Below, piece by piece: positions 1,036 through 18,503 of a stretch of 64,000 bases of DNA. The DNA is from Pseudomonadota bacterium (GTDB lineage Bacteria; Pseudomonadota; Gammaproteobacteria; UBA12402). The notes below the pieces were generated by a model. That model made no database searches. It was not told the DNA's origin and saw nothing but the letters and a program-made list of their open reading frames with translations. The position numbers and the translations under genes were made by a program. Location: contig JBBTCW010000006.1 of NCBI GenBank assembly GCA_038043025.1, positions 26,710-90,709 on the forward strand, written 5' to 3'. The number at the start of each line of letters is the position of its first letter. Positions within the stretch are counted from its first letter, which is position 1.

Positions 1036-1098
1036 TATCGTGATTTACCAGAGCATCATCGTTTGAAAGATTAACCTTATAATTATCAGGGTGCGTGC

Positions 1099-2229: not shown

Positions 2230-2240
2230 TAAGGTGATGT

Positions 2241-3722: not shown

Positions 3723-4424
3723 ATGAAAGCGCTATTATTAGCCGCGGGCTTTGGTAATCGATTAAAGCCGATTACAGATTACATGCCAAAATGCTTGGTT
3801 CCTATCAATGGGAAACCATTATTAGCATATTGGATAGAAAATTTAGTCGCTGCGGGCGTTCAAGAAATATTAATTAACCTACATTATAAAGCTGACCAGG
3901 TTCAAGCGTTTGTTGATCATTCTCCCTATAAAACGATTATTAAAACCGTTTATGAAGAAGAATTATTGTTAACGGGCGGAACGTTACATAGGAATAGAAA
4001 TTTTTTTGGTCATGATGATGTGTTAATGGCGCATGCGGATAATCTTTGCATCTGTGATTTTAAAAAATTTATGCAAACTTATTATGACCGCCCAAAAAAT
4101 GTTGATATGACGATGATGACGTTCAACACGGATAATCCGACATCTTGCGGCGTCGTTGAATTAAATAATAATATTGTTGTTGGTTTTTATGAAAAGGTAA
4201 AAAATCCTCCCAGTCATTTAGCCAATGGCGCTGTATATATTCTTTCACAAGAGGTGTTGGGGTTTTTGGAAGGATTGGGCAAGGAAAAAATTGACTTTAG
4301 CACAGAAGTGATTCCTCATTTTCTAAATCGAATCAATACGTTTCATAACAGCATTTACCATCGAGATATTGGTACGCTAGAAAGTTACGCGCTGGCTCAA
4401 CTAGAGGTGGAAAAATTATTATGA
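3723..4424 (+). CDS. Sugar-phosphate nucleotidyltransferase (NTP-transferase family)
   Basis: LLAAGFGNRLKPIT is a GxGxRL pyrophosphorylase motif. 233 aa. Start abuts the upstream stop. Confidence 0.6.
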   Translation: MKALLLAAGFGNRLKPITDYMPKCLVPINGKPLLAYWIENLVAAGVQEILINLHYKADQVQAFVDHSPYKTIIKTVYEEELLLTGGTLHRNRNFFGHDDVLMAHADNLCICDFKKFMQTYYDRPKNVDMTMMTFNTDNPTSCGVVELNNNIVVGFYEKVKNPPSHLANGAVYILSQEVLGFLEGLGKEKIDFSTEVIPHFLNRINTFHNSIYHRDIGTLESYALAQLEVEKLL

Positions 4425-5719
4425 GCAGAAAAAGCTTTATGGTTGTTTTTAATGATGACCTTAATATTGGGAATTTTTCAGAAAACTTACATTATACGTT
4501 ATTTAAAGCTGAGCGATTAAACAAAAAGGTGAAGCTTATAAGAAAGCGCATGTTTTTTGAGAAGTTTTTGAAAAAAGTTTTTAATCGTAAGCAGCTTACG
4601 GGAGTATATCGATTACATGGAGCACTTATTGATTCTCATTATACGCTGATAGATAGAGCGCTAGAGTTATTTTATGGATTTTATTTTTGGAGTAATTTAA
4701 TTAGTCGAGCGATTTTGTGGAAGTTAAAAATTTTACGCAAATTGGAACTAAAAACGATAAGTCGTGGCGAGACAGATATATTTAATATTGAAAATAAAGG
4801 TATTTTTGATGTCGGTTCAATGGGTGCTGTTAATTGGTCATCGCTTTTGGAAAAAAAACAAGATTTATTTTTTTGTTCAAAAGATGAAAAAAAATGTCAG
4901 GAAAATTTACGACAATTAGGGGTTGGAGAAGGTCAATGGTATGTGTGTTTGCATATTAGAACTAGTTTTTATCATAGCAGTTATATGGATGAACATCGAA
5001 ATTCTAGTGTCGAGAATTATTTAGAAGCCATCAATTATATACATTCTTTAGGTGGTGTCGTAATTAGGTTAGGTGATCCCGTGTTCTTGGGCTATGAGGA
5101 CGCTTATATTGACTATCCTAATACCTCTTTTAAATCTGAATTAATGGATTTATTTTTAATAAAAAATTGTAGATTTTTTTGGGGAACAAATTCTGGAATT
5201 TTTGATACGGCTTTATTATTTGGTGTGCCGACACTGGCGGTTAATGTCTCTGATTTTTTGTTTATTCGTCCTTACAAATCGGCGGATAGGATAATCTATA
5301 AACCCATATTGTCGAGAGAAGAAGGGAAGATTATGTCATTTGAAGAGGTTTTTCGCCATACTGACAGCATTATGATGTCTAATATTGGATTGTCAGGCTT
5401 TGAAGCATTTGATAAAGATTACAAAATGGTGGAGAATACATCAGATGAAATCCGGCAAGTTATTGAGGAAATGTGCGTTGGATTTGAAAATGACTTGCCA
5501 GAAACCTATTTTCAACAGGCATTTAAAGCGCAATTAAACATAGCCGCTATTCGATGGGCGACTCAAAAATTTTCTGATCGTCATTTGAATAATGCTTATA
5601 GAATAGCGGCCAAGACATATTTCAGCGGTCGCATTGGTCGGCATTTTGCAGAAAAATATTTATATGGCACGCCGGATTTGCCGCATGACAAAGAGAGGTG
5701 TTATGAAGCTGAACAATAA
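4421..5719 (+). CDS. Hypothetical protein, possible GT-B-like glycosyltransferase of unknown family
   Basis: 432-aa ORF in operon context. C-terminal half (IRLGDP...NCRFFWGTNSGIFDTALLFGVPTLAVN) vaguely resembles GT-B nucleotide-binding domains. No firm motif. Confidence 0.3.
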   Translation: MSRKSFMVVFNDDLNIGNFSENLHYTLFKAERLNKKVKLIRKRMFFEKFLKKVFNRKQLTGVYRLHGALIDSHYTLIDRALELFYGFYFWSNLISRAILWKLKILRKLELKTISRGETDIFNIENKGIFDVGSMGAVNWSSLLEKKQDLFFCSKDEKKCQENLRQLGVGEGQWYVCLHIRTSFYHSSYMDEHRNSSVENYLEAINYIHSLGGVVIRLGDPVFLGYEDAYIDYPNTSFKSELMDLFLIKNCRFFWGTNSGIFDTALLFGVPTLAVNVSDFLFIRPYKSADRIIYKPILSREEGKIMSFEEVFRHTDSIMMSNIGLSGFEAFDKDYKMVENTSDEIRQVIEEMCVGFENDLPETYFQQAFKAQLNIAAIRWATQKFSDRHLNNAYRIAAKTYFSGRIGRHFAEKYLYGTPDLPHDKERCYEAEQ

Positions 5720-6713
5720 GAAAATATTAGTAACCGGTGCCGATGGTTTTATCGGCTCGCATTTAGTGGAACGTCTCATCGCATTAAATTATGATGTGCG
5801 GGCATTTGTTTTATATAATTCTTTTAATAGTTGGGGGTGGTTGGATGCTTTGCCGGCCGCCACTAAAAAGAATTTGGATGTGTTTGTCGGCGATGTGCGT
5901 GACCCAAATGGTGTGCGCCATGCCGTTAAAGATTGTCAAATTATCATGCATTTGGCTGCATTGATTGGTATTCCGTATTCGTATTATTCGCCGGATTCTT
6001 ACGTGGATACCAATATTAAAGGAACGTTAAATGTTTTGCAGGCGGCAAGAGACTCTGGCGTTGAAAAAATTATTCATACGTCAACGAGTGAGGTATATGG
6101 TACGGCGCAGTTCGTGCCGATCACAGAAGATCATCCTCTGCAAGGACAGTCGCCTTATTCTGCGACAAAAATTGGAGCGGATCAATTAGCGCTTTCTTTT
6201 TATAATGCATTTGATACGCCGGTGAGCGTGATTCGCCCTTTTAATACTTATGGGCCGCGTCAATCGGCGCGGGCAGTGATTCCGACGATTATTACGCAAG
6301 TGGCGGCAGGGACGAGTGAGATTAAATTAGGTGCTTTGTCGCCCACGCGAGATTTTAATTATGTGAGCGATACAGTAAATGCGTTTATTGCGATGGCGGA
6401 ATCTGATCGCGTGATGGGCGAAGTGGTGAATATTGGCAGTAATTATGAGATTTCCATTGAAGATCTGGTTAAGTTGATTGCTGCTTGTATGAATAAAAAA
6501 ATCACGTTGAGTGAGGATGCGCAGAGGATGCGGCCAAAAAAGAGTGAGGTAGAGCGATTATGGGCAGATAACGCTAAAGCAAAAGCATTATTAGATTGGA
6601 CACCGGCGTATGCTGGGTTAGAGGGGTTGCAGAAAGGGTTGCAAAGAACCATCGAATGGTTCTCGCATTCAGAAAATCTTAAGCATTATAAGTGTGGGAA
6701 ATATGTCGTTTGA
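5703..6713 (+). CDS. NAD-dependent NDP-sugar 4,6-dehydratase/epimerase (SDR, LegB/PseB-like)
   Basis: Start set at the ATG at 5703 (MKLNNKKILVTGADGFIGSHL, Rossmann GxxGxxG) after a GAGAGG RBS. YSATK catalytic YxxxK is present. Confidence 0.65.
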   Translation: MKLNNKKILVTGADGFIGSHLVERLIALNYDVRAFVLYNSFNSWGWLDALPAATKKNLDVFVGDVRDPNGVRHAVKDCQIIMHLAALIGIPYSYYSPDSYVDTNIKGTLNVLQAARDSGVEKIIHTSTSEVYGTAQFVPITEDHPLQGQSPYSATKIGADQLALSFYNAFDTPVSVIRPFNTYGPRQSARAVIPTIITQVAAGTSEIKLGALSPTRDFNYVSDTVNAFIAMAESDRVMGEVVNIGSNYEISIEDLVKLIAACMNKKITLSEDAQRMRPKKSEVERLWADNAKAKALLDWTPAYAGLEGLQKGLQRTIEWFSHSENLKHYKCGKYVV

Positions 6714-7890
6714 TCCTCGTTTATTTATTACAACGTTAAAAAATTGCTTGCCAAGCGCTCAGGCGAGTATTGCATTGCATGAACCGTTATTTGCTGGCAA
6801 TGAATGGCGTTATGTTAAAGAATGTTTGGATACTGGCTGGGTCTCTTCGGGTGGAAAATTTGTGGATCGATTTGAATATGATTTGGCAGCGTACACTGGC
6901 GCGAAACATTGTGTGGTTGCCGTGAATGGTACTGCGGCGTTGCATATTATTTTTTTGTTGGCGGGCATCAAGCCAAATGATGAAGTATTGGTGCCAGCCT
7001 TGACATTTATTGCCACCTGTAACGCGATCGCCTATTGTGGCGGCGTTTCTCATTTTATTGACAGTGAAGAATCTCATTTAGGCATCGATTTTAAAAAATT
7101 GGAACGTTATTTATCTGACATAACAGAAATCAAAGACAATGTTTGTTACAATAAATTAACTAAGCGGCCGATTCGTGCGTTATGTGTAATGCATACGTTT
7201 GGTCATCCCGTGGATTTAGATGCGGCGATGGCTTTATGTGATCGTTATCATTTGAAGTTGATTGAAGATGCGGCTGAAGCATTGGGTTCTTTTTATAAAG
7301 GTCAGCATGTGGGACATCATGGTTTTGCCGGGGCATTAAGTTTTAATGGAAATAAAATCATTACGACAGGTGGCGGCGGAGCAATCGTCACGGATGATGA
7401 AAGCGTGGCTAAAAAAGCGAAGCATATCACGACAACGGCCAAACTGCCGCATCATTGGAAATATGATTATGATTGCATCGGTTATAATTATCGCTTACCG
7501 AATATTAATGCGGCGCTGGGATGTGCGCAGTTAGAAAAACTACCTGAATTTCTGCAGAAAAAACGCCAACTGACAGAACGATATGAAAAAACATTTAAAC
7601 ATTATGATGGATGCCGGTTTATCGAAGAGCCGAAAGAGGCAAAAAGCAACTGTTGGTTAAATGCGATATTGTTGGACAATTCCAGCCAGCATCTTCGCAA
7701 TGATATTTTAGAATTAGCGATTAAAAATAATATTTTTTTGCGGCCGGTGTGGGAGTTGATGGATACATTGCCGATGTATCAACATTGTCCGCGCATGGAT
7801 TTGTCGGGGGCGAAAAGTATCGCTGCTCGATTAATTAATATTCCGAGCAGTGTTTGTTTAAGTGAGGAGCCGGCGTGCGAAAAATATTAG
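6694..7890 (+). CDS. DegT/DnrJ/EryC1/StrS-family PLP-dependent sugar aminotransferase
   Basis: Family-typical layout with SFNGNKIITTGGGGAIVT (PLP lysine), EDAAEALGS and CVMHTFGHP. Confidence 0.75.
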   Translation: MGNMSFDPRLFITTLKNCLPSAQASIALHEPLFAGNEWRYVKECLDTGWVSSGGKFVDRFEYDLAAYTGAKHCVVAVNGTAALHIIFLLAGIKPNDEVLVPALTFIATCNAIAYCGGVSHFIDSEESHLGIDFKKLERYLSDITEIKDNVCYNKLTKRPIRALCVMHTFGHPVDLDAAMALCDRYHLKLIEDAAEALGSFYKGQHVGHHGFAGALSFNGNKIITTGGGGAIVTDDESVAKKAKHITTTAKLPHHWKYDYDCIGYNYRLPNINAALGCAQLEKLPEFLQKKRQLTERYEKTFKHYDGCRFIEEPKEAKSNCWLNAILLDNSSQHLRNDILELAIKNNIFLRPVWELMDTLPMYQHCPRMDLSGAKSIAARLINIPSSVCLSEEPACEKY

Positions 7891-9023
7891 TCATGACCTG
7901 CGCGCGCTCCGACTACGGGTTGTTGTATGGGTTGATGCGAGAGATACAGCAAGATTCATCGCTGCAATTGCAAATAGTGGTGATGGGGATGCATCTCGAA
8001 GAGAAATTTGGATTGACCTATAAGCAAATTTTAAAAGATGGTTTTAAGATTGATGCCAAAGTGAAAATGAATTTATCCTCTGATAAAGAGGAGACGGTTG
8101 CTAAGGCCGTTAGTTTAGGAGTGGCCGGTTGCGCAAAAGCCTATAAGAAATTAAAGCCCGATATTATTGTATTATTGGGCGATCGATTTGAAACATTTGC
8201 GGCCGCCAGTGCGGCACTGTTTATGCGGATTCCGATTGCGCATATTCATGGTGGCGAAGTCACGGAAGGGGCTTATGATGATGCTGTTCGGCATGCGATT
8301 ACTAAAATGGCGCATTGGCATTTTGTGGCGCATAAACAATATGCGAAGCGCGTTGTTCAATTAGGTGAAAATCCTAATCGAGTATTCTGCGTGGGGGCGG
8401 TGGGCTTGGATTCTATTAAGCGGACAAAACTATTGGACAAAAACGAACTCGAGAGGCAGCTGGGGTTTTCCATTAATAACAATACAGCGTTAGTGACGTA
8501 TCATCCGGTGACGCTAGAAAAGAGTATGGCTGCGCGCCATATTAAGTCTTTATTAAAGGCATTGGAACAATTTAATTTTCAATATATTTTTACGATACCC
8601 AATGCCGATGCCGAGAATACAAAAATTTTTAAAGCATTAAAAAGATTTATGCAGCGACATCCATCGGCGAAAATTTATGCCTCGCTGGGGACTCAGAAAT
8701 ATTTTTCTTTAATGAAATATGCGGGGTTAATGATCGGTAATTCATCGAGTGGCGTGATCGAAGCGCCATCGTTTAAGTTGCCCGTTGTCAATATTGGTTC
8801 GCGACAAATAGGGCGGTTGATGTTTGATAATGTTATTAATTGTTCTGATGATGCAGGTTTGATACAAAGAGCTATTAAAAAAGCACTGTCAATATCTTTT
8901 CGAGAAAAATGTCGGCAGCTTAAAAAAAGTGATTTGGATCAAGGGAGTACGAGTAAGAAAATTAAGAACCTTTTAAAAAGAGTAACATTGAGTGATTTGG
9001 TAAAAGGTTTTTATGACTTATAA
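7875..9023 (+). CDS. UDP-N-acetylglucosamine 2-epimerase (hydrolysing), NeuC/LegG-like
   Basis: N-terminus MRKILVMTCARSDYGLL and LLGDRFE are characteristic of NeuC-type hydrolysing 2-epimerases. Confidence 0.7.
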   Translation: MRKILVMTCARSDYGLLYGLMREIQQDSSLQLQIVVMGMHLEEKFGLTYKQILKDGFKIDAKVKMNLSSDKEETVAKAVSLGVAGCAKAYKKLKPDIIVLLGDRFETFAAASAALFMRIPIAHIHGGEVTEGAYDDAVRHAITKMAHWHFVAHKQYAKRVVQLGENPNRVFCVGAVGLDSIKRTKLLDKNELERQLGFSINNNTALVTYHPVTLEKSMAARHIKSLLKALEQFNFQYIFTIPNADAENTKIFKALKRFMQRHPSAKIYASLGTQKYFSLMKYAGLMIGNSSSGVIEAPSFKLPVVNIGSRQIGRLMFDNVINCSDDAGLIQRAIKKALSISFREKCRQLKKSDLDQGSTSKKIKNLLKRVTLSDLVKGFYDL

Positions 9024-9036
9024 TGGGGGTGCGAAA

Positions 9037-10110
9037 ATGGCCAAGACAATAATTATTGCTGAAGCGGGTGTTAATCATAATGGATCGTTAGATTTGGCTT
9101 TTGAATTGATTGATCAAGCCGTGGCAGTTGGTGCTGATATCGTCAAATTTCAAGCCTTTAATTCTTCTCAGATTGTTACTCAATCTTTATCTAAGGCATC
9201 TTATCAAAAAGTAAATACAGGTGGACAAGATTCGCAGTTGGCCATGTTGAAAAAATTGGAATTAAGTCGCGCGGATCATGAGCGGCTCATCGAGCATTGT
9301 CAAAAAAAATCCATTAAATATTTATCATCAGTTTTTGATCTGCAAAGTTTGAATGATTTGGTTAATTATTTTGGCATTACCGAGGTCAAACTGGGTTCTG
9401 GTGAGATAACGAATGGTCCTTTATTACTAAAAATAGCGCAATTGCAATGTGATGTTATCTTATCAACGGGCATGTGTGATTTGGTAGATATTCAGCGGGC
9501 ATTAAGTATTTTGGCTTTTGGGTATTTGGATAGAAGCGAATATCCAACCAGAGCGACTTTTGAAGCGGCTTTTAATTCCGTAGAGGCACAGAAAATTTTA
9601 AAAGAGAAGGTTGTTTTATTGCATTGCACAACAGCCTATCCTGCGCCCATAAACGATATTAATCTGTATGCGATGGATACTATGCGCAATACTTTTTTGT
9701 TGCCGGTAGGCTATTCAGATCATTCATTGGGGATTAATATAGCTATTGCTGCAGTTGCGCGTGGTGCGATTATGCTTGAAAAACATTTTACGCTAGATAA
9801 AAATTTACCCGGACCCGATCATAAAGCATCGCTTGATCCTCGAGAGTTTGCTCGAATGGTGACGGCTATCAGAGAAGTGGAGGTCGCGTTGGGTAATGCA
9901 GAAAAAAAAGTTACCCCGTCAGAGCTTGATCATTTTGATATTGTGCGCAAGCATTTGGTTGCGGCTCAAACGATCAAGAAAGGTGAAAAATTCACCGAGC
10001 GCAATATTGCAGTTAAGCGTTCGCAAGGGAAAATATCTCCAATATATTTCTGGGAGATTCTGGGAGAGACCGCCGACAAAGATTATGTCATTGATGATGT
10101 TATATCATGA
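9037..10110 (+). CDS. N-acylneuraminate (nonulosonic acid) synthase, NeuB/LegI-like
   Basis: IIIAEAGVNHNGSLDLAFELID is the NeuB-type PEP-condensing TIM-barrel N-terminus. A C-terminal SAF-like domain is present. Start taken at the second ATG, which has a GGGGG RBS; the ORF could start at 9013. Confidence 0.75.
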   Translation: MAKTIIIAEAGVNHNGSLDLAFELIDQAVAVGADIVKFQAFNSSQIVTQSLSKASYQKVNTGGQDSQLAMLKKLELSRADHERLIEHCQKKSIKYLSSVFDLQSLNDLVNYFGITEVKLGSGEITNGPLLLKIAQLQCDVILSTGMCDLVDIQRALSILAFGYLDRSEYPTRATFEAAFNSVEAQKILKEKVVLLHCTTAYPAPINDINLYAMDTMRNTFLLPVGYSDHSLGINIAIAAVARGAIMLEKHFTLDKNLPGPDHKASLDPREFARMVTAIREVEVALGNAEKKVTPSELDHFDIVRKHLVAAQTIKKGEKFTERNIAVKRSQGKISPIYFWEILGETADKDYVIDDVIS

Positions 10111-10935
10111 GTTTTTTGTAAATACTCTAAAGAGTAAGGGTGAATAGTTTCCAATAGCTGGCGGGAATGCCGCATCGAGAAATTTCACAAATTCAGTGTT
10201 TCTGATAGGCGCATTTTCTGGTCGTAGAGATTCATGCAATACTCTTGCCGTAAAATAGTGGGTGGATAAATAATTTTGAGGTATTGAAGTATTTATTTCG
10301 GTAAACCCTGTATTTTTCATTTCATCTATAATAGATTCGCTTAAATAATTATTATGATATGCTGGTTTCATTTCCGTTAGGCATAGTTCTTGCTGTGCTT
10401 TATTTAAGTTGACCAAGGGTTCGATAAAGGATTCTATCATGATGAAGATGCCATCTGTGTTCAAAATAGTATATATTTTTTCAATTGCCGTTATTTGATC
10501 TTCCTTAGAGAGTAGATTGATTAAGACTCTTTCGGAAATCACTATATCAAAAGAATTTGGCTTGAAGTTATCTTTCCTGCAGTCGTCTTGAATGAGTTGA
10601 ACATTTTTTAATGTTCTTTCGCTGGCTAATTTATATAATTCTTTATTGAATTCTAATCCATGAAATTTGAAGTCAGGATATCTTGCGGATAATTGCGACA
10701 AGAGATAGCCATTTCCACAACCCACATCTAATATGGTTAGATTTTTATCTTGTTTTTTATACGTCTTGTCTATTGTGTTAAAAATAAATTCAATTTCTTT
10801 ATCTCGTATAAAAATATCATGCATAGTGGATTCTTTTGAGCTGCCCTTGTTGGTTGCTTCTTTGTTATAATGTGTTTGAATAACATCATGAGGGTTCATA
10901 ATATTCCTTTTGATAAGAGTTTGATGAAAGGACAA
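10105..10935 (-). CDS. Class I SAM-dependent methyltransferase
   Basis: ILDVGCGNGYLLSQL glycine-rich motif I. 276 aa on the minus strand. Confidence 0.6.
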   Translation of the reverse strand: MSFHQTLIKRNIMNPHDVIQTHYNKEATNKGSSKESTMHDIFIRDKEIEFIFNTIDKTYKKQDKNLTILDVGCGNGYLLSQLSARYPDFKFHGLEFNKELYKLASERTLKNVQLIQDDCRKDNFKPNSFDIVISERVLINLLSKEDQITAIEKIYTILNTDGIFIMIESFIEPLVNLNKAQQELCLTEMKPAYHNNYLSESIIDEMKNTGFTEINTSIPQNYLSTHYFTARVLHESLRPENAPIRNTEFVKFLDAAFPPAIGNYSPLLFRVFTKNS

Positions 10936-11059
10936 GATTATTCAGATTATTGTAGCGATTGATATTGCTAATACAAGAAAAATATAGGGCGTTAAGGAGG
11001 GTAAGGGCCGCATTTGTTCATATTTTGAACACGTTATTATTAGTTGTTGCAAATGCTTT

Positions 11060-12190
11060 ATGGTAATATACATCCTCAAATCGGTTGCCATTGCTGGTAG
11101 CGGAGATGGGTCGATTAATATTCTTGTGAGGTTGTTTGTGTACGATGTAGAATGGAAAAAACTTTTAGTTAATCCAGATTGTACATTAGAAAACGCCATT
11201 CGCGTGATTAATCAGGGTGCTTTGGGCACCGTGTTTGTTGTCGATCATGATTTAAAATTATTGGGTGTAGTGACGGATGGCGATGTGCGTCGTGGTTTAT
11301 TGCGACATGTTACGCTGGATCAGCCTGTTTTTTCCGTGATGAATGATCAGCCGAGGATGGCCATGCGCAATATAGATGTTGCCGAATTGATTACCATGAT
11401 GGAAGAACAGTCGATACGTTGTGTGCCGATTGTGGATGAAAATCAATGCATGATTGACGTAGAAATTTCACCGTATTTGCGTCGCGAGGCTAAAAATACG
11501 AATTGGGTGTTTTTAATGGCCGGTGGTTTTGGCACGCGATTAAAGCCATTAACCGACGATTGCCCGAAGCCATTATTGAAAATTGGCGGGCGTCCCGTTT
11601 TAGAAAATATTATTCAACAGTTTAAATTGAATGGGTTTCAGAAATTTTTTATGTCCGTTCATTATAAATTGAATATGGTGAAAAGTTATTTTGGTACGGG
11701 GGAACAGTTTGGCGTTGATATTAAATATCTTGAGGAAGAGGAGCCGTTGGGGACGGGTGGATCATTGGGCTTGTTACCCGAAATATCCCAGCCTTTAATC
11801 GTGATGAATGCCGATGTGTTAACGAAGGTGAATTTTCGTCAATTATTACAGTTTCATCTGGATTCAAAAGCTGCAGTGACGATGTGTGTGCGTGAATATG
11901 GTATGCAGGTGCCTTATGGTACCGTTCAGATCGATGGGCATGTTGTCACAGAAATTATTGAAAAACCCTCGTATCAATTTTTTATTAATGCGGGTATTTA
12001 TGTGTTATCGCCGGATGTCGTTAATGGGATTCAGGGAAAAAATAATTTTGATATGCCAACATTATTTAATCGGTTGATTCAAGAAGGCAAGACCGTAGTG
12101 ACCTTTCCCATACATGAATATTGGTTGGATATGGGCAAGATGGAAGATTTTAAACGTGCGCAAATAGATATTTCACCCTTTGTATCATGA
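11060..12190 (+). CDS. CBS-domain-containing sugar-phosphate nucleotidyltransferase (PtmE-like)
   Basis: N-terminal CBS-pair-like region, then an NTP-transferase domain (MAGGFGTRLKPLT, GxGxRL). This architecture is known from legionaminic acid pathways. Exact start uncertain. Confidence 0.6.
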   Translation: MVIYILKSVAIAGSGDGSINILVRLFVYDVEWKKLLVNPDCTLENAIRVINQGALGTVFVVDHDLKLLGVVTDGDVRRGLLRHVTLDQPVFSVMNDQPRMAMRNIDVAELITMMEEQSIRCVPIVDENQCMIDVEISPYLRREAKNTNWVFLMAGGFGTRLKPLTDDCPKPLLKIGGRPVLENIIQQFKLNGFQKFFMSVHYKLNMVKSYFGTGEQFGVDIKYLEEEEPLGTGGSLGLLPEISQPLIVMNADVLTKVNFRQLLQFHLDSKAAVTMCVREYGMQVPYGTVQIDGHVVTEIIEKPSYQFFINAGIYVLSPDVVNGIQGKNNFDMPTLFNRLIQEGKTVVTFPIHEYWLDMGKMEDFKRAQIDISPFVS

Positions 12191-13197
12191 TAGAAACCAT
12201 ACACAAACCCGTCATATTAGTTGTCGGTCTGGGCAGTATCGGCAAGCGGCATGTGAAAAATCTTCGTGCACTTTTTCCTGATGCGTATATGGTTGTGTGT
12301 CGACATGCGCCGACGGAGCATGATCAAGATTTTGTGACGCAATATATTGATAAAGTTGTGTATGATCTGAATGAAGCGATTGCGTTAAAACCGATGGCAG
12401 CTATTTTGTGCAATCCGGCGGTTTATCATGTTTCGATTGCACTGCAATTGGCAAAAAATGACATTCATCTGTTTATTGAAAAGCCGTTGTCGAATACGTT
12501 AACAGATGTGGAAGCTCTCATTACTCTATGTCGTCAGAAAAAATTAGTGTTCATGGTGGGTTATAATCTTCGCTTTTCAAAGACATTAGATCGCGCGAGG
12601 GAACTCATAAAGCGCGGAGCAATCGGTGATATCCTGTCTGCGCAGGTCAATACAGGGCAATATTTACCGGATTGGAGGCCGGGTGCTGATTATCGAAAAA
12701 CCGTGTCAGCGCAACAGAAAATGGGCGGCGGTGTTTTGTTAGAACTCAGTCATGAGTTAGATTATATGTGTTGGTTATTGGGCAAGCCTGTCGAGGTTTT
12801 TGCGCGATTGACCTCGAGTGGTTCATTGGAGATTGATGTAGAAGATAATGCGGATGTCTTTTTAACGTTTCAAAAGAATTTAATGGTGAGTATTCATCTT
12901 GATATGTTACAGCGTACCGCTTGTCGCCAGTGTAAGGTTGTGGGTGCGTTGGGTACAATAATTTGGGATGGTGTTGAAGATAAACTCATTGTTCAGTCTG
13001 AAAAACAAGAATTTTCGCAGAGTTTTTGCGGGGCAGAGGATAAAAATGAAATGTATAAACGAGAAATAAAACATTTTTTTGATTCTATTCGTAAAGGATC
13101 TCCTGCTATGGTTACAGGGGTTGATGCGTTGGAGAGTTTAAAGATTGTGTTGGCTGCAAGAAAATCAAATCAAACACGAGAAATTGTGCCATTATGA
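12187..13197 (+). CDS. Gfo/Idh/MocA-family NAD(P)-dependent oxidoreductase
   Basis: ILVVGLGSIGKRH Rossmann N-terminus; EKPL motif. Confidence 0.6.
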   Translation: MIETIHKPVILVVGLGSIGKRHVKNLRALFPDAYMVVCRHAPTEHDQDFVTQYIDKVVYDLNEAIALKPMAAILCNPAVYHVSIALQLAKNDIHLFIEKPLSNTLTDVEALITLCRQKKLVFMVGYNLRFSKTLDRARELIKRGAIGDILSAQVNTGQYLPDWRPGADYRKTVSAQQKMGGGVLLELSHELDYMCWLLGKPVEVFARLTSSGSLEIDVEDNADVFLTFQKNLMVSIHLDMLQRTACRQCKVVGALGTIIWDGVEDKLIVQSEKQEFSQSFCGAEDKNEMYKREIKHFFDSIRKGSPAMVTGVDALESLKIVLAARKSNQTREIVPL

Positions 13198-13895
13198 AAG
13201 CGTTGAATTGTTTTGCATTTATTTTTGCGCGAGGAGGCTCGAAAGGCATTCCGCGAAAAAATATTACATTGTTAAATGGCAAACCATTGATTGCATATTC
13301 GATCGAAACCGCGTTAGCCTGTCCATCGATTAGTCGTGTCATAGTGTCGACCGATGACGAGGAGATTGCATTGGTTGCTAGGCAGTATGGCGCAGAAGTG
13401 CCTTTTATGAGACCAAAAGAATTGGCGCAAGATAATAGTTCAGAGTGGCAAGCGTGGCAACATGCGATTCGGTTTATGCAGAAATGCGATGCATTTGATG
13501 TGTTTGTGAGCTTGCCTGCAACGGCGCCTTTGCGAAATGTAGAGGATGTGGAAAAATGTATTAACCTTTTATCACATGCAGATACCGATATTGTCGTGAC
13601 CGTTAAGCCAGCAGAGCGTAATCCCTATTTTAATATGGTGAAGGTTGATCGTGATGGTTTTTCGCATTTGGTTTGCAAAGGAGATGATGTCGTTTATAAT
13701 CGTCAAGTGGCGCCGATGCTTTACGATATGACGACGGTGGCTTATGTGGCAAAGCCGGATTTTATATTGAACGCGACCAGTATATTTGAAGGGCGTGTTC
13801 GTTCGGTCGTTGTTCCCGCCGAAAGAGCCATTGATATTGATACGCCATTTGATTTAAAAATAGCAGACATGTTAATGAAGGAGTCTGTGCAATGA
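13194..13895 (+). CDS. Acylneuraminate cytidylyltransferase (CMP-nonulosonic acid synthetase, NeuA/LegF-like)
   Basis: IFARGGSKGIPRKNI is typical of CMP-NeuAc/CMP-Kdo synthetase-type cytidylyltransferases. 233 aa. Confidence 0.7.
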   Translation: MKALNCFAFIFARGGSKGIPRKNITLLNGKPLIAYSIETALACPSISRVIVSTDDEEIALVARQYGAEVPFMRPKELAQDNSSEWQAWQHAIRFMQKCDAFDVFVSLPATAPLRNVEDVEKCINLLSHADTDIVVTVKPAERNPYFNMVKVDRDGFSHLVCKGDDVVYNRQVAPMLYDMTTVAYVAKPDFILNATSIFEGRVRSVVVPAERAIDIDTPFDLKIADMLMKESVQ

Positions 13896-14689
13896 CGATA
13901 CATGAACAGATGAGTTTAGCCGGTCGTGTGGCATTGATTACGGGTGGTGCGGGACATGTTGGGCGCATGGCCGCCGACATATTAGCAGAGCTAGGTTCAC
14001 ATATTGTTATATTGGATAATGATCGAAAGGCGGCAGAAACGGTTGCGCAAGCCATTCAAGAAAAATATGCTGTGCAAAGCATTCCTATTGTAGTGGATTT
14101 AGAAGAAGATAATTTTGTTTTAAACGTGATGCCGGTGATTCAAAAAAAATTCGGACGTTTAGATATTTTAATTAATAATGCGGCGTTTACGGGCGTTTCT
14201 GGTTTAAAAGGTTGGGCAGTTGGTTTTAAGGAACAGCATGTGGATACTTGGCGTCGTGCATTGGAAGTGAATTTAACAGCGCCATTTGCATTGATCCAGT
14301 CTTGTGTTGATTTGTTAAAAGCGAGCAAAGGTGTTGTCATTAATATGGGTTCAATTTATGGAGTGTTAGGCCCTGATATGAATTTGTATCAAGGAACGAG
14401 CATGGGCAACCCTGCCGCTTATGCAGCCAGCAAAGGTGGATTGCTTCAGTTGACGCATTGGTTAGCCACTGTTTTAGCGCCCGATATTCGTGTTAATATG
14501 ATTTCGCCGGGTGGGATTTTTCGCCATCAGCCGAAAGATTTTTGTGAGCGTTATATCCAAAAGACGCCTTTAAAAAGAATGGCGACGGAAGAAGATTTAA
14601 AAGGAGCCATTGCTTATTTTGCAACGGATTTATCGCTGTATGTGACGGGACAAAATTTATTGGTGGATGGTGGTTGGACAGCTTGGTAA
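13892..14689 (+). CDS. Short-chain dehydrogenase/reductase (SDR)
   Basis: ITGGAGHVGR Rossmann motif, NNAA motif and YAASK catalytic YxxxK. Confidence 0.65.
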   Translation: MTIHEQMSLAGRVALITGGAGHVGRMAADILAELGSHIVILDNDRKAAETVAQAIQEKYAVQSIPIVVDLEEDNFVLNVMPVIQKKFGRLDILINNAAFTGVSGLKGWAVGFKEQHVDTWRRALEVNLTAPFALIQSCVDLLKASKGVVINMGSIYGVLGPDMNLYQGTSMGNPAAYAASKGGLLQLTHWLATVLAPDIRVNMISPGGIFRHQPKDFCERYIQKTPLKRMATEEDLKGAIAYFATDLSLYVTGQNLLVDGGWTAW

Positions 14690-14710: not shown

Positions 14711-15898
14711 ATGTTTAATAAAGTTATTTTTTTGGTGTATTCCTATCATCACTCAATCGAGCATGAGCGCTTTGGTGTTTATGAGTTTGAAAAAAATAAT
14801 TTTTCAGTAGAGATTTGGATTTTGGCAAAAATTTTTTTGCCCGATAGGGAAACAAAATATTTATATGAAGAAAATGCCAATACTCAGAATATTAAAGTTT
14901 TTCATAACAAGGCTGAGTACAAAAATGCAATGAGATATTTGGATAAAAAGACTATCGTCATCAGTTATATTCCCTATGCGATCTCTTGTTATTTTATTTA
15001 TAGAGCCTTAACCAAATACCGCGTTACCTACATGTTGAACTCATGTTGTCATGTGCCTTCGTCAGAGGGGAGCCGACAGGTTTATGATAGTTGGTGGCAT
15101 TTTATATCTGCTAAGCTACAAGGTAAATTTTTTTTACGTTGCATGGAATGGGTGTTTCGTAAAATGCCAGGATATTTAATTGGAATTCGGCCGGCCAATG
15201 CCGCCTTGTTGGGAGGAATAAAAACATGGGGTGTGCATCGACCCGTCGGTCATCGCACGTTGCGATGGTATTTGCATGAAGATGATTATGAACGATTTTT
15301 AAAAGAAAATAAAACGCCATGCCAAGTAGATGAATCACTGTGTGTTTTTTTAGATTCGTATATTCCCTATCATCCGGATATGTCGTTTATGGGAGCGAGC
15401 GGGTCTATTGATCCCCAAAAATATTATCGTAAATTATGCTGTTTTTTCGATTATTTAGAACAAACTTATCATTATCATGTGGTCATTGCAGCGCATCCGC
15501 GCTCCAGATATCATGAGCATCCTGATTGTTTTGGTGGACGGGAAGTCATAAAAGGAAAAACAGTTTCATTGGTGAGAGCAAGCGGATTAGTCTTGGGTGA
15601 TGCAAGTGCATCAACAAGTTTTGCTGTCCTTTATAAAAAACCCATTATTTTTTTAATGATGGACATGTTAAAGCCCCACAAAATATATGAAAATTCTAAA
15701 AAATTTGCGGTCGCATTAGGCACGGAAATATTAAACTTGGATAATGATTTTAGTCATTTTGATTTAACGTCGAAGCTGCACATTAATCGAAATGCCTATA
15801 AAAATTATTTGGAAAATTATATTAAGGTTTCGGGTTCACCGGATACTTTATTTTGGGAATCTGTGCTAGACAAGCTCCATGCAGGCGCTTTGGGTTAG
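14711..15898 (+). CDS. Hypothetical protein, possible GT-B-fold glycosyl/nonulosonate transferase
   Basis: 395-aa ORF directly after the CMP-NulO module. C-terminal region (HVVIAAHPRS...LGDASASTSFAVLYKKPIIF) looks like a GT-B nucleotide-binding domain. No firm family call. Confidence 0.3.
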   Translation: MFNKVIFLVYSYHHSIEHERFGVYEFEKNNFSVEIWILAKIFLPDRETKYLYEENANTQNIKVFHNKAEYKNAMRYLDKKTIVISYIPYAISCYFIYRALTKYRVTYMLNSCCHVPSSEGSRQVYDSWWHFISAKLQGKFFLRCMEWVFRKMPGYLIGIRPANAALLGGIKTWGVHRPVGHRTLRWYLHEDDYERFLKENKTPCQVDESLCVFLDSYIPYHPDMSFMGASGSIDPQKYYRKLCCFFDYLEQTYHYHVVIAAHPRSRYHEHPDCFGGREVIKGKTVSLVRASGLVLGDASASTSFAVLYKKPIIFLMMDMLKPHKIYENSKKFAVALGTEILNLDNDFSHFDLTSKLHINRNAYKNYLENYIKVSGSPDTLFWESVLDKLHAGALG

Positions 15899-16663: not shown

Positions 16664-16709
16664 TATTAAAAATCTCTCAATCAATGGGGTTAGTAAAATG
16701 TGAATATTT

Positions 16710-16880
16710 CCCCGCGGCTTGCCGCGAGGGACATTGCGCCTGGGGATTCTCAAGGGGAGCGGGCGTTCGCTCCCCTTGAGTCGCCGTCCGCGCGGGTTTC
16801 CCGCGCAGGCGATCAATAAAAGAAATAAAAATACCCCGTCCGCTTGCGGCGGGGATTTTTATTAAAAATTTCCGCCGCAA
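16710..16880. repeat. GC-rich cluster of 4 hairpin-forming palindromes
   Basis: Visible inverted repeats: CGCGGcttgCCGCG; a perfect 13-bp stem CTCAAGGGGAGCG-6 nt-CGCTCCCCTTGAG (16749-16780); CCGCGCGGGtttCCCGCGCaGG (16788-16809); CCCCGTCCGCttgCGGCGGGG followed by ATTTTTA (16834-16861). Sits in an AT-rich divergent intergenic region. Confidence 0.6.
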
Positions 16881-18476: not shown

Positions 18477-18503
18477 ATTATGTGAAAAAGGGGCTTGTTT
18501 TAT

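What the first reader, a model, noticed from the sequence alone, without database searches (positions are those of the whole stretch)
5703..14689. Legionaminic-acid-type nonulosonic acid pathway with a PtmE-like CBS nucleotidyltransferase
Dehydratase, DegT aminotransferase, NeuC-like hydrolysing epimerase, NeuB-like synthase, CBS-NTP-transferase, Gfo/Idh/MocA oxidoreductase, CMP-NulO synthetase and an SDR are contiguous. This matches the GDP-GlcNAc-based legionaminic acid route known from Campylobacter and Legionella. No hexapeptide N-acetyltransferase is evident in the module, so the hypothetical protein at 4421-5719 or another gene may substitute, or N-acylation may differ.
Basis: partly seen in the sequence, partly recalled or inferred. 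Interest (0 to 1): 0.5.

Follow-up and report, generated by a model that had tools for sequence, protein, structure and literature searches.

The report
Legionaminic-acid sugar pathway, acetyltransferase swapped out
This is a real gene cluster for making and attaching a sialic-acid-like nine-carbon surface sugar (legionaminic-acid type) in an uncultured groundwater bacterium; compared with a close relative, the sugar-building synthase and its N-acetyltransferase have been replaced by a divergent synthase plus a methyltransferase, so it probably makes a differently decorated sugar.

Summary
All eight named genes lie at 5703-14689 on the + strand: LegB, LegC, NeuC/LegG, NeuB/LegI, a CBS-nucleotidyltransferase (PtmE-like), Gfo/Idh/MocA, a CMP-NulO synthetase and an SDR. 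LegB, LegC, LegG and LegI all score above the curated NCBIfam cut-offs. LegI falls in the Leg clade of a context-labelled NeuB tree.

No PglD/LegH-type acetyltransferase or formyltransferase exists in the 64-kb window or in 9.4 kb upstream.

A close relative (Rifle groundwater gammaproteobacterium) shares 84-94 % identical LegB, LegC, LegG, PtmE, PtmF, LegF and PtmA. It carries a PglD-type acetyltransferase in exactly that slot, and its LegI is only 55 % identical. So a 2.2-kb cassette (legI plus slot enzyme) was swapped.

The five closest methyltransferase homologues examined all sit legI-MT-ptmE in other Leg clusters.

The next gene (14711-15898) is a new GT-B family with an invariant HP motif, the likely NulO transferase. 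It is only 41 % identical to the relative's copy.

This is a known kind of pathway in a new, plausibly non-7-N-acetylated and methylated variant. The chemistry of the product is inferred, not shown.

The parts
4421..5719 (+). TIGR04372-family glycosyltransferase (432 aa). It overlaps the legB start by 17 nt. Variable, low-GC, serotype-type gene; probably part of the glycan assembly, not of NulO synthesis.
   Evidence: NCBIfam TIGR04372, 150.5 bits (cut-off 45), no Pfam hit. Only 55 % and 46 % identical to two paralogues in the close relative L101, whose flanking genes are 84-94 % identical. GC 33.8 %.
5703..6713 (+). LegB: NAD-dependent sugar-nucleotide 4,6-dehydratase (336 aa).
   Evidence: TIGR04180, 525 bits (cut-off 475). 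94 % identical over 336 aa to the L101 orthologue, which fixes the ATG at 5703.
6703..7890 (+). LegC: PLP-dependent 4-aminotransferase (395 aa; the ORF opens at GTG 6694).
   Evidence: TIGR04181, 523 bits (cut-off 420); Pfam DegT_DnrJ_EryC1, 1e-85. NCBI names the identical protein MEK6730681.1 'LegC family aminotransferase'.
7875..9023 (+). LegG/NeuC: hydrolysing NDP-sugar 2-epimerase (382 aa).
   Evidence: TIGR03568, 480 bits (cut-off 236); Epimerase_2, 4e-88. 84 % identical to the L101 orthologue.
9013..10110 (+). LegI: NeuB-family nonulosonic acid synthase (365 aa). Divergent allele inside the swapped cassette.
   Evidence: TIGR03569, 449 bits (cut-off 400). Lies in the Leg clade of the context-labelled NeuB tree. 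Only 55 % identical to the relative's synthase. Nothing closer than 58 % among 5.8 billion proteins.
10105..10899 (-). Class-I SAM-dependent methyltransferase (264 aa). It occupies the slot where related loci carry the N-acyltransferase. Convergent with legI: both stop codons lie in the palindrome TCATGA at 10105-10110.
   Evidence: Pfam Methyltransf_25/31/11. AlphaFold model pLDDT 93 with a class-I fold. The five examined homologues of 52 % identity or more all lie legI-MT-ptmE. Absent from the close relative, which has a PglD-type acetyltransferase there. GC 32.6 %. Sequence read.
10900..11137 (.). Spacer between the divergently oriented methyltransferase and ptmE. It came in with the cassette and must carry the promoters for both directions (inferred).
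   Evidence: No homology to L101, where the acetyltransferase stop and the ptmE start are 11 nt apart. The promoter scan is not above chance.
11138..12190 (+). PtmE-like CBS-pair plus sugar-1-phosphate nucleotidyltransferase (about 350 aa; the mechanical ORF opens at ATG 11060).
   Evidence: Pfam CBS and NTP_transferase. 94 % identical to the 348-aa L101 orthologue, with DNA homology resuming at 11129. GAGG lies 6 nt before GTG 11138. 45-46 % identical to the E. coli Leg-cluster nucleotidyltransferases.
12187..13197 (+). Gfo/Idh/MocA oxidoreductase (PtmF/ElaA position).
   Evidence: Pfam GFO_IDH_MocA N- and C-terminal domains. Best PDB relative is 3EZY, the model used to solve ElaA. 32.5 % identical to the E. 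coli S30 cassette gene.
13194..13895 (+). CMP-nonulosonate synthetase (LegF/PtmB/ElaB position).
   Evidence: CTP_transf_3. PDB relatives are NeuA/CMP-NeuAc synthetases 9FTB and 6IFD. 54 % identical to the E. coli S30 gene that sits between Gfo/Idh/MocA and SDR, but only 32 % to the O161 LegF, which has no such neighbours.
13892..14689 (+). Short-chain dehydrogenase/reductase (PtmA/ElaC position).
   Evidence: adh_short_C2, 1e-42. Best PDB relative is 6UH2, the model used to solve ElaC.
14711..15898 (+). Uncharacterised GT-B protein (395 aa; 387 aa from ATG 14735) with an invariant His-Pro motif. Candidate CMP-NulO (sialyltransferase-like) transferase. The module should be extended to include it.
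8900..11128 (.). Swapped cassette relative to the close relative: the 3' end of legG, all of legI, the inverted methyltransferase and the spacer.
   Evidence: Sliding DNA identity to L101 is 80-97 % from 5600 to about 8900 and 57-67 % over 8900-9963. There is no homology over 9964-11128, and identity is 90 % again from 11129.

Best explanation
The region is a legionaminic-acid-type nonulosonic acid (NulO) synthesis and transfer module. It sits in a very large surface-glycan island of an uncultured groundwater gammaproteobacterium.

Inferred route, from the C. jejuni pathway:
1. PtmE makes the (probably GDP-linked) GlcN/GlcNAc donor.
2. LegB dehydrates it at C4,6.
3. LegC aminates C4.
4. LegG removes the nucleotide and epimerises C2.
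5. LegI condenses the product with PEP to give the nine-carbon acid.
6. LegF activates it with CTP.
7. The Gfo/Idh/MocA-SDR pair flanking LegF oxidises and re-reduces a hydroxyl, most likely C8, as proposed for ElaA/ElaC.
8. The GT-B protein at 14711-15898 transfers the CMP-sugar.

Shown directly: relative to a close relative, the 2.2-kb piece holding legI and a PglD-type N-acetyltransferase has been replaced. The replacement holds a very divergent legI plus an oppositely oriented SAM methyltransferase. The neighbouring putative transferase has also diverged strongly.

Inferred: the 4-amino group made by LegC (N7 of the product) is therefore not acetylated by a dedicated in-cluster enzyme. The product would be a methylated Leg or 8-epi-Leg derivative with a free, N-methylated or otherwise substituted N7. 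The site of methylation (N or O) and the step at which it occurs are not determined.
For: Pathway identity:
- LegB, LegC, LegG and LegI score above curated NCBIfam cut-offs.
- In the NeuB tree, the window's LegI lies among loci carrying LegB, LegC, LegG and PtmE, together with the E. coli O161 (Leg5Ac7Ala) synthase. Pse-type and NeuC-only clades are separate.
- The gene order LegG-LegI-[slot]-PtmE-Gfo-CMP synthetase-SDR is the same as in E. coli elg-like clusters and in L008.

Cassette swap:
- Protein identity to L101 is LegB 94 %, LegC 89 %, LegG 84 %, PtmE 94 %, PtmF 89 %, LegF 91 % and PtmA 84 %. LegI is only 55 % identical and hyp395 only 41 %.
- The relative has a PglD_N plus Hexapep acetyltransferase in the slot and no homologue of the methyltransferase.
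- DNA identity breakpoints lie at about 8900 and at 11129.
- The swapped and variable genes have lower GC: 32.6-36.4 % against 40-44 %.

The methyltransferase belongs with LegI:
- All five examined homologues of 52 % identity or more lie legI-MT-ptmE on one strand in Leg clusters of other lineages. None of these clusters has a PglD-type acetyltransferase in the core.
- A PglD-type LbH is present in 0 of 5 MT-linked loci against 25 of 41 other Leg-clade loci (Fisher p = 0.015).

The slot is where N7 chemistry is set. In related loci it holds an LbH acetyltransferase, a formyltransferase, a FemAB-like enzyme (E. coli O161, Leg5Ac7Ala) or an ATP-grasp enzyme.

Precedents:
- In A. baumannii the synthase and acyltransferase co-vary between lgaD/E (7-N-acetyl) and lgaH/I (7-N-3-hydroxybutanoyl) (PMC3628348 and PMC9676051).
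- Ca. Kuenenia makes CMP-NulOs with a free amine and +14 Da methyl forms (preprints 10.64898/2026.04.20.719630 and 10.1101/2020.12.03.409086).

The transferase: GT-B fold, invariant HP motif, and TarL/TagF/polysialyltransferase as structural neighbours.
Against: - No chemistry was measured.
- In C. jejuni, the archetype, LegH is also encoded outside the Leg cluster. An acetyltransferase elsewhere in this genome cannot be excluded, because only 73 kb of at least 1.76 Mb was examined.
- Methyltransferase relatives at 44-48 % identity lie in housekeeping contexts unrelated to NulOs. The family is therefore not intrinsically NulO-specific.
- The fold gives no clue to the substrate.
- One of the MT-linked loci (L088) has a protein with a weak Hexapep hit (19 bits) three genes downstream.
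- The methyltransferase is inverted here, convergent with legI. Its expression, and that of the downstream genes, depends on promoters that I could not demonstrate.
- The window's Gfo/Idh/MocA and SDR proteins are only 30-33 % identical to those of the E. coli elg-like cassette. Their equivalence to ElaA/ElaC is positional rather than proven.
Confidence: 0.65

Rival explanations
1. Canonical product with a remote acetyltransferase. The module makes ordinary di-N-acetyl Leg or 8-epi-Leg, using a LegH/PglD-type N-acetyltransferase encoded elsewhere in the genome. The methyltransferase adds a late decoration (for example O-methyl), or acts on another sugar of the island.
For: - C. jejuni LegH lies outside its Leg cluster, and the L. 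pneumophila dehydratase lies outside its LPS locus.
- NulO-cluster-associated methylases are common next to Pse-type synthases too.
- The Kuenenia +14 Da species were read as O-methylation.
- The island contains several other methyltransferases and amino sugars.
Against: - The close relative keeps its acetyltransferase in the slot. In this lineage it was removed together with legI and replaced by a 55 %-identical synthase. That is hard to explain if the substrate of LegI were unchanged.
- No LbH or formyltransferase exists in 73 kb.
- The putative transferase also diverged to 41 % identity.
Confidence: 0.25
2. PtmH/ORF8-like role. The methyltransferase N-methylates an acetimidoyl (or aminoacyl) substituent of the NulO, as in C. 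jejuni Leg5AmNMe7Ac and L. pneumophila serogroup 1 LPS.
For: - PtmH sits next to legI in C. jejuni. L. pneumophila ORF8, an N-methyltransferase, sits next to a NeuB-family ORF9.
- An asparagine-synthase-type amidotransferase is present at 53441-55348.
Against: - No PtmG/PseA-type amidotransferase lies in or near the module, nor in the five MT-linked loci examined.
- The AsnB-like gene is 40 kb away, beside the wecB/wecC-type genes.
- The NulO-linked methylase model that NCBIfam does hold (TIGR03587, Pse-associated) is missed (28 bits, cut-off 112).
Confidence: 0.07
3. N7 is aminoacylated by the 692-aa protein at 46247-48325, whose C-terminal domain is FemAB/GNAT-like. The model is the FemAB-family enzyme in the slot of the E. 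coli O161 (Leg5Ac7Ala) cluster.
For: - It is the only acyltransferase-like domain in the window.
- E. coli O161 and L028 carry FemAB-like proteins in the slot.
Against: - It is only marginally similar to the Leg-cluster FemAB-like enzymes (E 0.006-0.25).
- It lies 32 kb away, beside two other DegT aminotransferases and a GT2-deacetylase.
- By my reading of its sequence (no Pfam hit), its N-terminal half looks like a DegT-type aminotransferase, which would suggest a self-contained step on another sugar.
Confidence: 0.05
4. The module is a decaying or non-functional remnant, because the inverted insertion interrupts the operon.
For: - The methyltransferase is convergent with legI, and no promoter was demonstrated.
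- Two assemblies show split ptmE and split glycosyltransferase genes.
Against: - All genes are intact in 100 %-identical contigs from independent samples.
- The 'split' genes differ only by 26-30 indels with zero mismatches over 20 kb, which marks them as sequencing artefacts.
- Both stop codons are neatly preserved in one palindrome.
Confidence: 0.03

Closest known systems
Campylobacter jejuni CMP-legionaminic acid pathway (LegB, LegC, LegH, LegG, LegI, LegF with PtmE/PtmF/PtmA; Schoenhofen et al. 2009, cited from my own knowledge and)
   Same: - LegB- and LegC-type enzymes score above the family cut-offs.
- A hydrolysing 2-epimerase, a NeuB-family synthase and a CBS-nucleotidyltransferase are present.
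- They are followed by Gfo/Idh/MocA, a cytidylyltransferase and an SDR, in the same order as Cj1329-Cj1332.
- The acetyltransferase is not in the cluster.
- A methyltransferase lies next to legI.
   Different: - No PtmG amidotransferase is present.
- The methyltransferase is inverted, and its relation to PtmH is untested.
- The context is a huge LPS- or capsule-type island (initiating transferase, ABC transporter, many glycosyltransferases), not a flagellin glycosylation island with Maf proteins.
- A novel GT-B protein follows the cassette.
ElaABC / elg-type 8-epi-legionaminic acid modules (A. baumannii KL49, E. coli O61/O108-like clusters, V. vulnificus YJ016; PMC13656337, PMC9676051)
   Same: - The order is identical: NeuC-NeuB-[slot]-nucleotidyltransferase-Gfo/Idh/MocA-cytidylyltransferase-SDR (E. 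coli S30 and PE164).
- The cytidylyltransferase is 54 % identical.
- The best PDB relatives (3EZY; 6IFD, ranked second; 6UH2) are the models used to solve ElaA, ElaB and ElaC.
   Different: - Those clusters use a PglF-type dehydratase instead of LegB.
- They carry an LbH acetyltransferase in the slot.
- The window's oxidoreductases are only 30-33 % identical to theirs.
Slot variation in Leg clusters: A. baumannii lgaD/E versus lgaH/I, and E. coli O161 with a FemAB-family enzyme (Leg5Ac7Ala)
   Same: The synthase and the enzyme that modifies the 4-amino group are exchanged together, while the rest of the module is conserved. The neighbouring glycosyltransferases differ between variants.
   Different: The incoming partner here is a SAM methyltransferase rather than any kind of acyltransferase, and it is on the opposite strand.
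Ca. Kuenenia stuttgartiensis Leg-like cluster giving CMP-NulOs with a free amine, a formyl group and +14 Da forms (preprint 10.64898/2026.04.20.719630)
   Same: It is a Leg-type core without a standard acetyltransferase, and methylated NulO species have been detected. The loci L087, L089 and L183 carry this window's methyltransferase family. They also hold a formyltransferase and/or a PIG-L deacetylase (both in L087 and L089; L183 is cut off upstream of its PIG-L gene).
   Different: The window has neither a formyltransferase nor a deacetylase. Whether the Kuenenia cluster holds this methyltransferase family was not checked.
NulO-cluster-associated methylases: C. jejuni PtmH, L. pneumophila LPS ORF8, and NCBIfam TIGR03587 'pseudaminic acid biosynthesis-associated methylase'
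   Same: All are class-I SAM methyltransferases encoded beside a NeuB-family synthase. More distant relatives of the window's enzyme (26-38 % identity) lie beside Pse-type synthases.
   Different: The window's enzyme scores 28 bits against TIGR03587 (cut-off 112). There is no acetimidoyl-forming partner.

Membership tests
Legionaminic acid biosynthesis pathway (C. jejuni type) | LegB-type NAD-dependent 4,6-dehydratase | tested here: met
   TIGR04180, 525 bits against a cut-off of 475.
Legionaminic acid biosynthesis pathway (C. jejuni type) | LegC-type 4-aminotransferase | tested here: met
   TIGR04181, 523 bits against a cut-off of 420.
Legionaminic acid biosynthesis pathway (C. jejuni type) | LegH/PglD-type N-acetyltransferase acting on the 4-amino group | tested here: not met
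   No hit in the six-frame window or in 9.4 kb upstream. It is present in the slot of the close relative.
Legionaminic acid biosynthesis pathway (C. jejuni type) | Hydrolysing 2-epimerase (LegG/NeuC) | tested here: met
   TIGR03568, 480 bits against a cut-off of 236.
Legionaminic acid biosynthesis pathway (C. jejuni type) | NeuB-family synthase of the Leg clade rather than the Neu or Pse clades | tested here: met
   TIGR03569, 449 bits (cut-off 400); PseI model only 228 bits (cut-off 340). The NJ tree with genomic-context labels places it in the clade with LegB, LegC, LegG and PtmE neighbours and with E. coli O161. It is a long branch: at most 58 % identical to anything known.
Legionaminic acid biosynthesis pathway (C. 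jejuni type) | CBS-domain sugar-1-phosphate nucleotidyltransferase (PtmE) supplying a GDP-linked precursor | tested here: inconclusive
   The CBS plus NTP_transferase architecture and 45-46 % identity to Leg-cluster orthologues are met. Nucleotide specificity (GDP versus UDP) cannot be read from the sequence.
Legionaminic acid biosynthesis pathway (C. jejuni type) | Product has the D-glycero-D-galacto configuration with 5,7-diacylamido groups | not testable with these tools
   This needs NMR or MS of the sugar.
ElaABC CMP-Leg C8-epimerase cassette | Gfo/Idh/MocA - cytidylyltransferase - SDR, in this order, directly after the CBS-nucleotidyltransferase | tested here: met
   12187-14689. The order is the same in E. 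coli S30 and PE164.
ElaABC CMP-Leg C8-epimerase cassette | Orthology to ElaA and ElaC | tested here: inconclusive
   ElaA/B/C sequences were not in the PDB copy. Identity to the E. coli elg-like cassette is 32.5 / 54 / 30 %. The same best PDB templates (3EZY, 6UH2) were used to solve ElaA and ElaC.
ElaABC CMP-Leg C8-epimerase cassette | C8 oxidation and re-reduction of the CMP-NulO | not testable with these tools
   This is biochemical. C. jejuni has the same trio yet is reported to make Leg, so prediction from the genes alone is ambiguous.
PtmH / L. pneumophila ORF8 N-methyltransferases of 5-acetimidoyl-Leg | Class-I SAM methyltransferase adjacent to the Leg synthase | tested here: met
   10105-10899, next to legI.
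PtmH / L. pneumophila ORF8 N-methyltransferases of 5-acetimidoyl-Leg | Partner amidotransferase (PtmG/PseA type) that makes the acetimidoyl group | tested here: not met
   None in the module or in the five MT-linked loci. The only amidotransferase is an AsnB-type gene 40 kb away.
PtmH / L. pneumophila ORF8 N-methyltransferases of 5-acetimidoyl-Leg | Sequence membership | not tested
   Reference sequences (Q0P8T2, ORF8) were not retrievable with the tools.
NCBIfam TIGR03587, Pse-associated methylase | Score above the curated cut-off | tested here: not met
   28 bits against a cut-off of 112.
Bacterial GT-B sialyltransferase/TagF-like transferases (HP-motif enzymes) | GT-B fold | tested here: met
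Bacterial GT-B sialyltransferase/TagF-like transferases (HP-motif enzymes) | Conserved His-Pro motif | tested here: met
   H254-P255 is invariant in 42 family members, within AAHPRS. That this corresponds to the catalytic HP motif rests on my own knowledge of GT38/52/80 and was not superposed.
Bacterial GT-B sialyltransferase/TagF-like transferases (HP-motif enzymes) | Use of a CMP-NulO donor | not testable with these tools
   The support is contextual only: the gene follows the cassette in the window, L093, L101 and L102.

The most novel reading that the evidence does not exclude
A SAM methyltransferase has taken the place of the N-acyltransferase in a Leg-type pathway. The amino group introduced by LegC would then be left free or N-methylated (mono- or dimethyl) instead of acylated. 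The result would be a zwitterionic 7-amino or 7-methylamino legionaminic (or 8-epi-legionaminic) acid. It would be made by a co-adapted, long-branch synthase and installed by a previously unrecognised HP-motif GT-B family. This would be the genetic basis for the 'unmasked amine' and methylated nonulosonic acids so far seen only by mass spectrometry in environmental bacteria.
Probability: 0.25. Interest if true: 0.65.

Novelty: new variant of a known kind. Interest (0 to 1): 0.4.

Why it matters
Nonulosonic acids sit at the outermost tip of bacterial surface glycans. Their N5 and N7 substituents set charge, antigenicity and phage or immune recognition.

This locus, compared with its near-identical relative, shows a natural switch of serotype. 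One 2.2-kb cassette (synthase plus N7-modifying enzyme) and the adjacent transferase change while the rest of the pathway is kept.

If the methyltransferase really replaces acylation, three things follow:
- It would define a new class of NulO decoration.
- It would give a gene marker (legI-MT-ptmE) for free-amine or methylated NulOs detected by MS in anammox and other environmental bacteria.
- It would provide a candidate new family of NulO transferases.

If not, this remains a well-resolved but ordinary example of O-antigen or capsule diversification.

Tried and rejected
- **Structure of the methyltransferase.** The model has pLDDT 93. Foldseek against the PDB returned only generic class-I methyltransferases (N-, O-, C- and S-methylating alike; TM about 0.5). 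It says nothing about regiochemistry. The AFDB library was unavailable.
- **PDB sequence search for the methyltransferase.** There is no close relative, and TylM1/DesVI-type sugar N-methyltransferases are not among the hits.
- **Metagenome-contig scan with the NulO-linked methyltransferase alignment.** It recovered nothing closer than 44 % identity. It only showed that distant relatives sit beside Pse-type synthases.
- **Inverted repeats flanking the methyltransferase, as a trace of an inversion.** Only short, chance-level matches were found.
- **Promoter and terminator scan.** Promoter-like matches are at chance level (47 found, 45 expected). Terminator-like matches are only modestly above expectation (19 found, 12.0 ± 3.8 expected). 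None of them was assigned a function.
- **The 692-aa FemAB/GNAT-domain protein as a LegH substitute.** Similarity to Leg-cluster FemAB-like enzymes is marginal.
It is a TIGR04372 glycosyltransferase, not an acyltransferase.
- **Apparent pseudogenes in two metagenome assemblies (split ptmE and split glycosyltransferase).** They differ from the window by indels only, with no mismatch, so they are assembly or sequencing artefacts.
- **Search for a donor of the cassette.** Neither LegI nor the methyltransferase has any relative above 58 % identity in the 5.8-billion-protein collection.
- **ElaA/B/C structures.** They were not in the PDB copy, so direct comparison was impossible.
- **Rfam and tRNA scans of the window.** Both were empty.

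Full report
**Source and setting.** The window has about 39 % G+C and positive GC skew in every bin, and almost every gene lies on the + strand. It is 100 % identical to groundwater metagenome contigs from the Hainich H52 well (ERZ1292621 and ERZ1292622). NCBI holds the same proteins, MEK6730679-MEK6730688, as a 'Pseudomonadota bacterium' MAG. Nearly the whole 64 kb is a surface-glycan island. It holds many glycosyltransferases, four DegT-type aminotransferases, several radical-SAM/B12 enzymes, wecB/wecC-like genes and two nucleotidyltransferase pairs. An initiating phosphoglycosyl transferase and an ABC transporter lie just upstream of the window.

**Checking the observation.**
- LegB, 5703-6713: TIGR04180, 525 bits (cut-off 475).
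- LegC, 6703-7890: TIGR04181, 523 bits (cut-off 420).
- NeuC/LegG, 7875-9023: TIGR03568, 480 bits (cut-off 236).
- NeuB/LegI, 9013-10110: TIGR03569, 449 bits (cut-off 400).
- A CBS plus NTP_transferase protein, ORF 11060-12190.
- A Gfo/Idh/MocA oxidoreductase, 12187-13197.
- A CTP_transf_3 cytidylyltransferase, 13194-13895.
- An SDR, 13892-14689.

The genes overlap by a few bases, as in an operon. The stop codons of legI and of the methyltransferase share the palindrome TCATGA at 10105-10110 (sequence). The nucleotidyltransferase most likely starts at GTG 11138, giving 350 aa. Three things support that start: a GAGG lies 6 nt upstream, the orthologues are 348-352 aa long, and homology to the relative begins at 11129.

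**Is it a Leg pathway?** I built a neighbour-joining tree of NeuB homologues from 80 genome loci, four metagenome loci and two E. coli O-antigen clusters. Each was labelled by its neighbours.
- The window's synthase falls in the large clade whose members are flanked by strong LegB, LegC, LegG and PtmE homologues.
- That clade contains the synthase of E. coli O161, whose O antigen holds Leg5Ac7Ala.
- The Pse-type clade (PseB/PseC-like neighbours, no 2-epimerase) and a small NeuC-only clade are separate.

The dehydratase is present in homologous loci.

**The missing acetyltransferase.** I built HMMs from 29 PglD/LegH-type left-handed-beta-helix proteins and 8 formyltransferases found in the related loci.
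- Neither HMM finds anything in the six-frame translation of the window (best E 0.16) or in the 9.4 kb upstream on the source contig.
- Five more diverse LbH queries also fail.
- The only acyltransferase-like domain is a FemAB/GNAT domain at the C-terminus of a 692-aa protein, 32 kb downstream. It is barely similar to the FemAB-like enzymes of Leg clusters.
- The protein at 4421-5719 is a TIGR04372-family glycosyltransferase.

In related loci the position around legI is occupied by different enzymes:
- an LbH acetyltransferase in most loci;
- a formyltransferase in L008, L009, L018, L087 and L089;
- a FemAB-like enzyme in E. coli O161 and L028;
- an ATP-grasp enzyme in L020.

That position is therefore where the N7 substituent is chosen.

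**The decisive comparison.** The listing of cluster members showed that LegC, PtmE and LegF have relatives of at least 90 % identity in 'Gammaproteobacteria bacterium RIFCSPHIGHO2_02_FULL_42_13'. Its contig (L101; a second copy is L102) has the same module.
- Protein identities to the window are LegB 94 %, LegC 89 %, LegG 84 %, PtmE 94 %, Gfo/Idh/MocA 89 %, LegF 91 % and SDR 84 %.
- The synthase is only 55 % identical.
- The slot between synthase and PtmE holds a 212-aa PglD_N plus Hexapep acetyltransferase on the + strand.
- No homologue of the methyltransferase is present.
- Sliding DNA identity is 80-97 % from 5600 to about 8900 and 57-67 % across legI. There is no homology over 9964-11128, and identity is 90 % again from 11129.

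A 2.2-kb cassette (legI plus slot enzyme) has therefore been exchanged between two otherwise near-identical modules. The incoming genes and the other variable genes have lower G+C (32.6-36.4 %) than the conserved ones (40-44 %). Neither the window's LegI nor its methyltransferase has any relative above 58 % identity among 5.8 billion proteins. The flanking genes do have relatives at 84-94 %.

**Does the methyltransferase belong to the pathway?** All five examined homologues with 52 % identity or more lie legI-MT-ptmE on one strand, in Leg-type clusters of other lineages (a Nitrospiraceae MAG and several unnamed contigs).
- L087 and L089 also have a formyltransferase and a PIG-L deacetylase. 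L183 has the PIG-L deacetylase, but the contig ends just upstream of it.
- L088 has none in the core, but it carries a protein with a weak Hexapep hit three genes downstream.
- L093 continues with Gfo/Idh/MocA, a LegF::aminotransferase fusion, an SDR and a homologue of the window's next gene.

None of the five has a PglD-type acetyltransferase in the core, against 25 of 41 other Leg-clade loci (p = 0.015).

Two cautions apply. Homologues at 44-48 % identity lie in unrelated housekeeping neighbourhoods. The predicted structure is a generic class-I fold that does not reveal the substrate. Only the window has the gene inverted.

**The rest of the module.** The Gfo/Idh/MocA-cytidylyltransferase-SDR trio follows PtmE exactly as in C. 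jejuni (ptmE-ptmF-ptmB-ptmA) and in E. coli elg-like clusters.
- In A. baumannii KL49 the equivalent ElaA/ElaB/ElaC are proposed to activate Leg and epimerise C8, giving 8-epi-Leg (PMC13656337).
- Modules without the two oxidoreductases give Leg. Examples are A. baumannii lgaABCDEFG and E. coli O161.
- The window's three proteins have as best or second-best PDB relatives the same entries used to solve ElaA, ElaB and ElaC: 3EZY, 6IFD and 6UH2.
- The cytidylyltransferase is 54 % identical to the E. coli cassette gene, but the oxidoreductases are only 30-33 % identical.

The C8 configuration of the product is therefore open. I lean slightly towards an epimerised form.

**The next gene (14711-15898).** It has no Pfam or NCBIfam hit and belongs to a family of 83 unnamed proteins.
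- Its model (pLDDT 88) is a GT-B fold. The nearest structures are TarL, NeuC, TagF and a polysialyltransferase.
- The family has an invariant His-Pro within AAHPRS.
- It follows the SDR in the window, L093, L101 and L102. It is only 41 % identical between the window and the relative.

I read it as the CMP-NulO transferase, co-varying with the sugar it handles. The module should be extended to 15898.

**Mechanism: shown versus inferred.** Four things are shown: the gene families, their order, the cassette swap, the recurrent legI-MT-ptmE linkage, and the absence of LbH or formyl enzymes in 73 kb.

The enzymatic route is inferred from the established C. jejuni pathway: nucleotide-GlcNAc, then the 4-keto-6-deoxy sugar, then the 4-amino sugar, then the free 2-epimerised hexose, then the nine-carbon acid, then the CMP-sugar.

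A further inference rests on two observations. The exchange removed the acetyltransferase, and it brought in a different synthase. From these I infer that the substrate of LegI, and hence the N7 substituent, differs from acetyl. This is the same logic as the lgaD/E versus lgaH/I exchange in A. baumannii.

What the methyltransferase methylates is not known. The candidates are the 4-amino group, a hydroxyl, or a substituent added elsewhere. Free-amine and +14/+28 Da NulOs have been detected by MS in Ca. Kuenenia, so such products are plausible.

The main rival is a remote LegH, as in C. jejuni, where LegH is outside the cluster. I give it about one chance in four, because it does not explain why the synthase was exchanged too.

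**Verdict.** This is a genuine, already auto-annotated Leg-type NulO cluster. The added value is a well-defined natural variant in which a methyltransferase replaces the N-acetyltransferase, together with a candidate new NulO-transferase family. It is moderately interesting. The novelty lies in the inferred chemistry, which needs MS or NMR to confirm.

Noticed in passing
window 36-4424 (continues upstream in L098 6516-10008): An unusual sugar pathway lies directly upstream of the module. It holds a SIS isomerase, a radical SAM/SPASM enzyme, an epimerase/dehydratase and a split transketolase (N- and C-terminal halves as separate genes). It also holds another radical SAM, an HldE-like bifunctional enzyme with the domains in reversed order (cytidylyltransferase then PfkB kinase), and a nucleotidyltransferase. 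This suggests a heptose-derived or chain-extended or branched sugar.
   Followed up: partly
window 23202-24731 (minus strand): This is a second NeuB-family protein (509 aa), fused to a C-terminal cupin domain, and it is a deep outlier in the NeuB tree. It lies beside an RfbH-type dehydrase (21910-23238; 722 bits to NF011936) and a C-methyltransferase (24911-26047). It recalls the NeuB-family ORF9 next to the methyltransferase ORF8 in the L. pneumophila LPS locus.
   Followed up: partly
window 26104-32820 and 55455-56921: Five radical-SAM enzymes lie inside the glycan island, three of them with B12-binding domains. They are interleaved with GT2 glycosyltransferases and may carry out C-methylation or other radical chemistry on sugars.
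   Followed up: no
window 46247-48325: This 692-aa protein has a FemAB/Acetyltransf_6 domain in its C-terminal third, the only acyltransferase-like domain in the window. By eye, its N-terminal part looks like a DegT-type aminotransferase, but no Pfam hit supports that. It follows a GT2-polysaccharide-deacetylase fusion.
   Followed up: partly
window 49484-50950 and 60005-61432: A Schlafen AlbA_2/HATPase_c_4 protein and an 'archaeal-type' ATPase_2 protein are embedded among the glycan genes. They look like inserted regulatory or defence-type genes.
   Followed up: no
window 16690-16870: This is a unique GC-rich element of four consecutive hairpins (MFE -89 kcal/mol for 181 nt) in an AT-rich spacer. 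It is 92 % identical, but inverted, in the relative (L101 13318-13488). There is no Rfam match and no other copy in the window.
   Followed up: partly
L101 11119-13511 versus window 18495-20059 and 40966-41607: In the close relative, a CDP-glucose-4,6-dehydratase-like gene, a small epimerase-like gene and an OmpA-like barrel gene are inserted between ptmE and the Gfo/Idh/MocA gene. In the window, the same genes (84-92 % identical) lie 6 kb and 29 kb away. This shows extensive shuffling of the island.
   Followed up: partly
L001 and L003 (metagenome copies of window 1-20100): Two assemblies show split ptmE, a split glycosyltransferase and altered neighbours. They differ from the window by 26-30 indels and no substitution over 20 kb. 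These are sequencing or assembly errors, not pseudogenes.
   Followed up: yes
window 15920-16663 (minus strand): This is a second minus-strand methyltransferase-like gene (247 aa as called; weak Methyltransf_25 hit), directly after the GT-B gene. It has low GC (33.9 %). In the relative, its place is taken by a B12-radical-SAM gene and a Methyltransf_21 gene, so this is another variable piece.
   Followed up: partly
L088 10825-13662 and L093 3743-7642: In two MT-linked Leg clusters, a class-III aminotransferase lies beside the cytidylyltransferase (L088) or is fused to it (L093). An SDR follows in both, and L093 also has a Gfo/Idh/MocA gene upstream. This suggests oxidation and transamination of a NulO hydroxyl, giving a triamino nonulosonic acid.
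   Followed up: no
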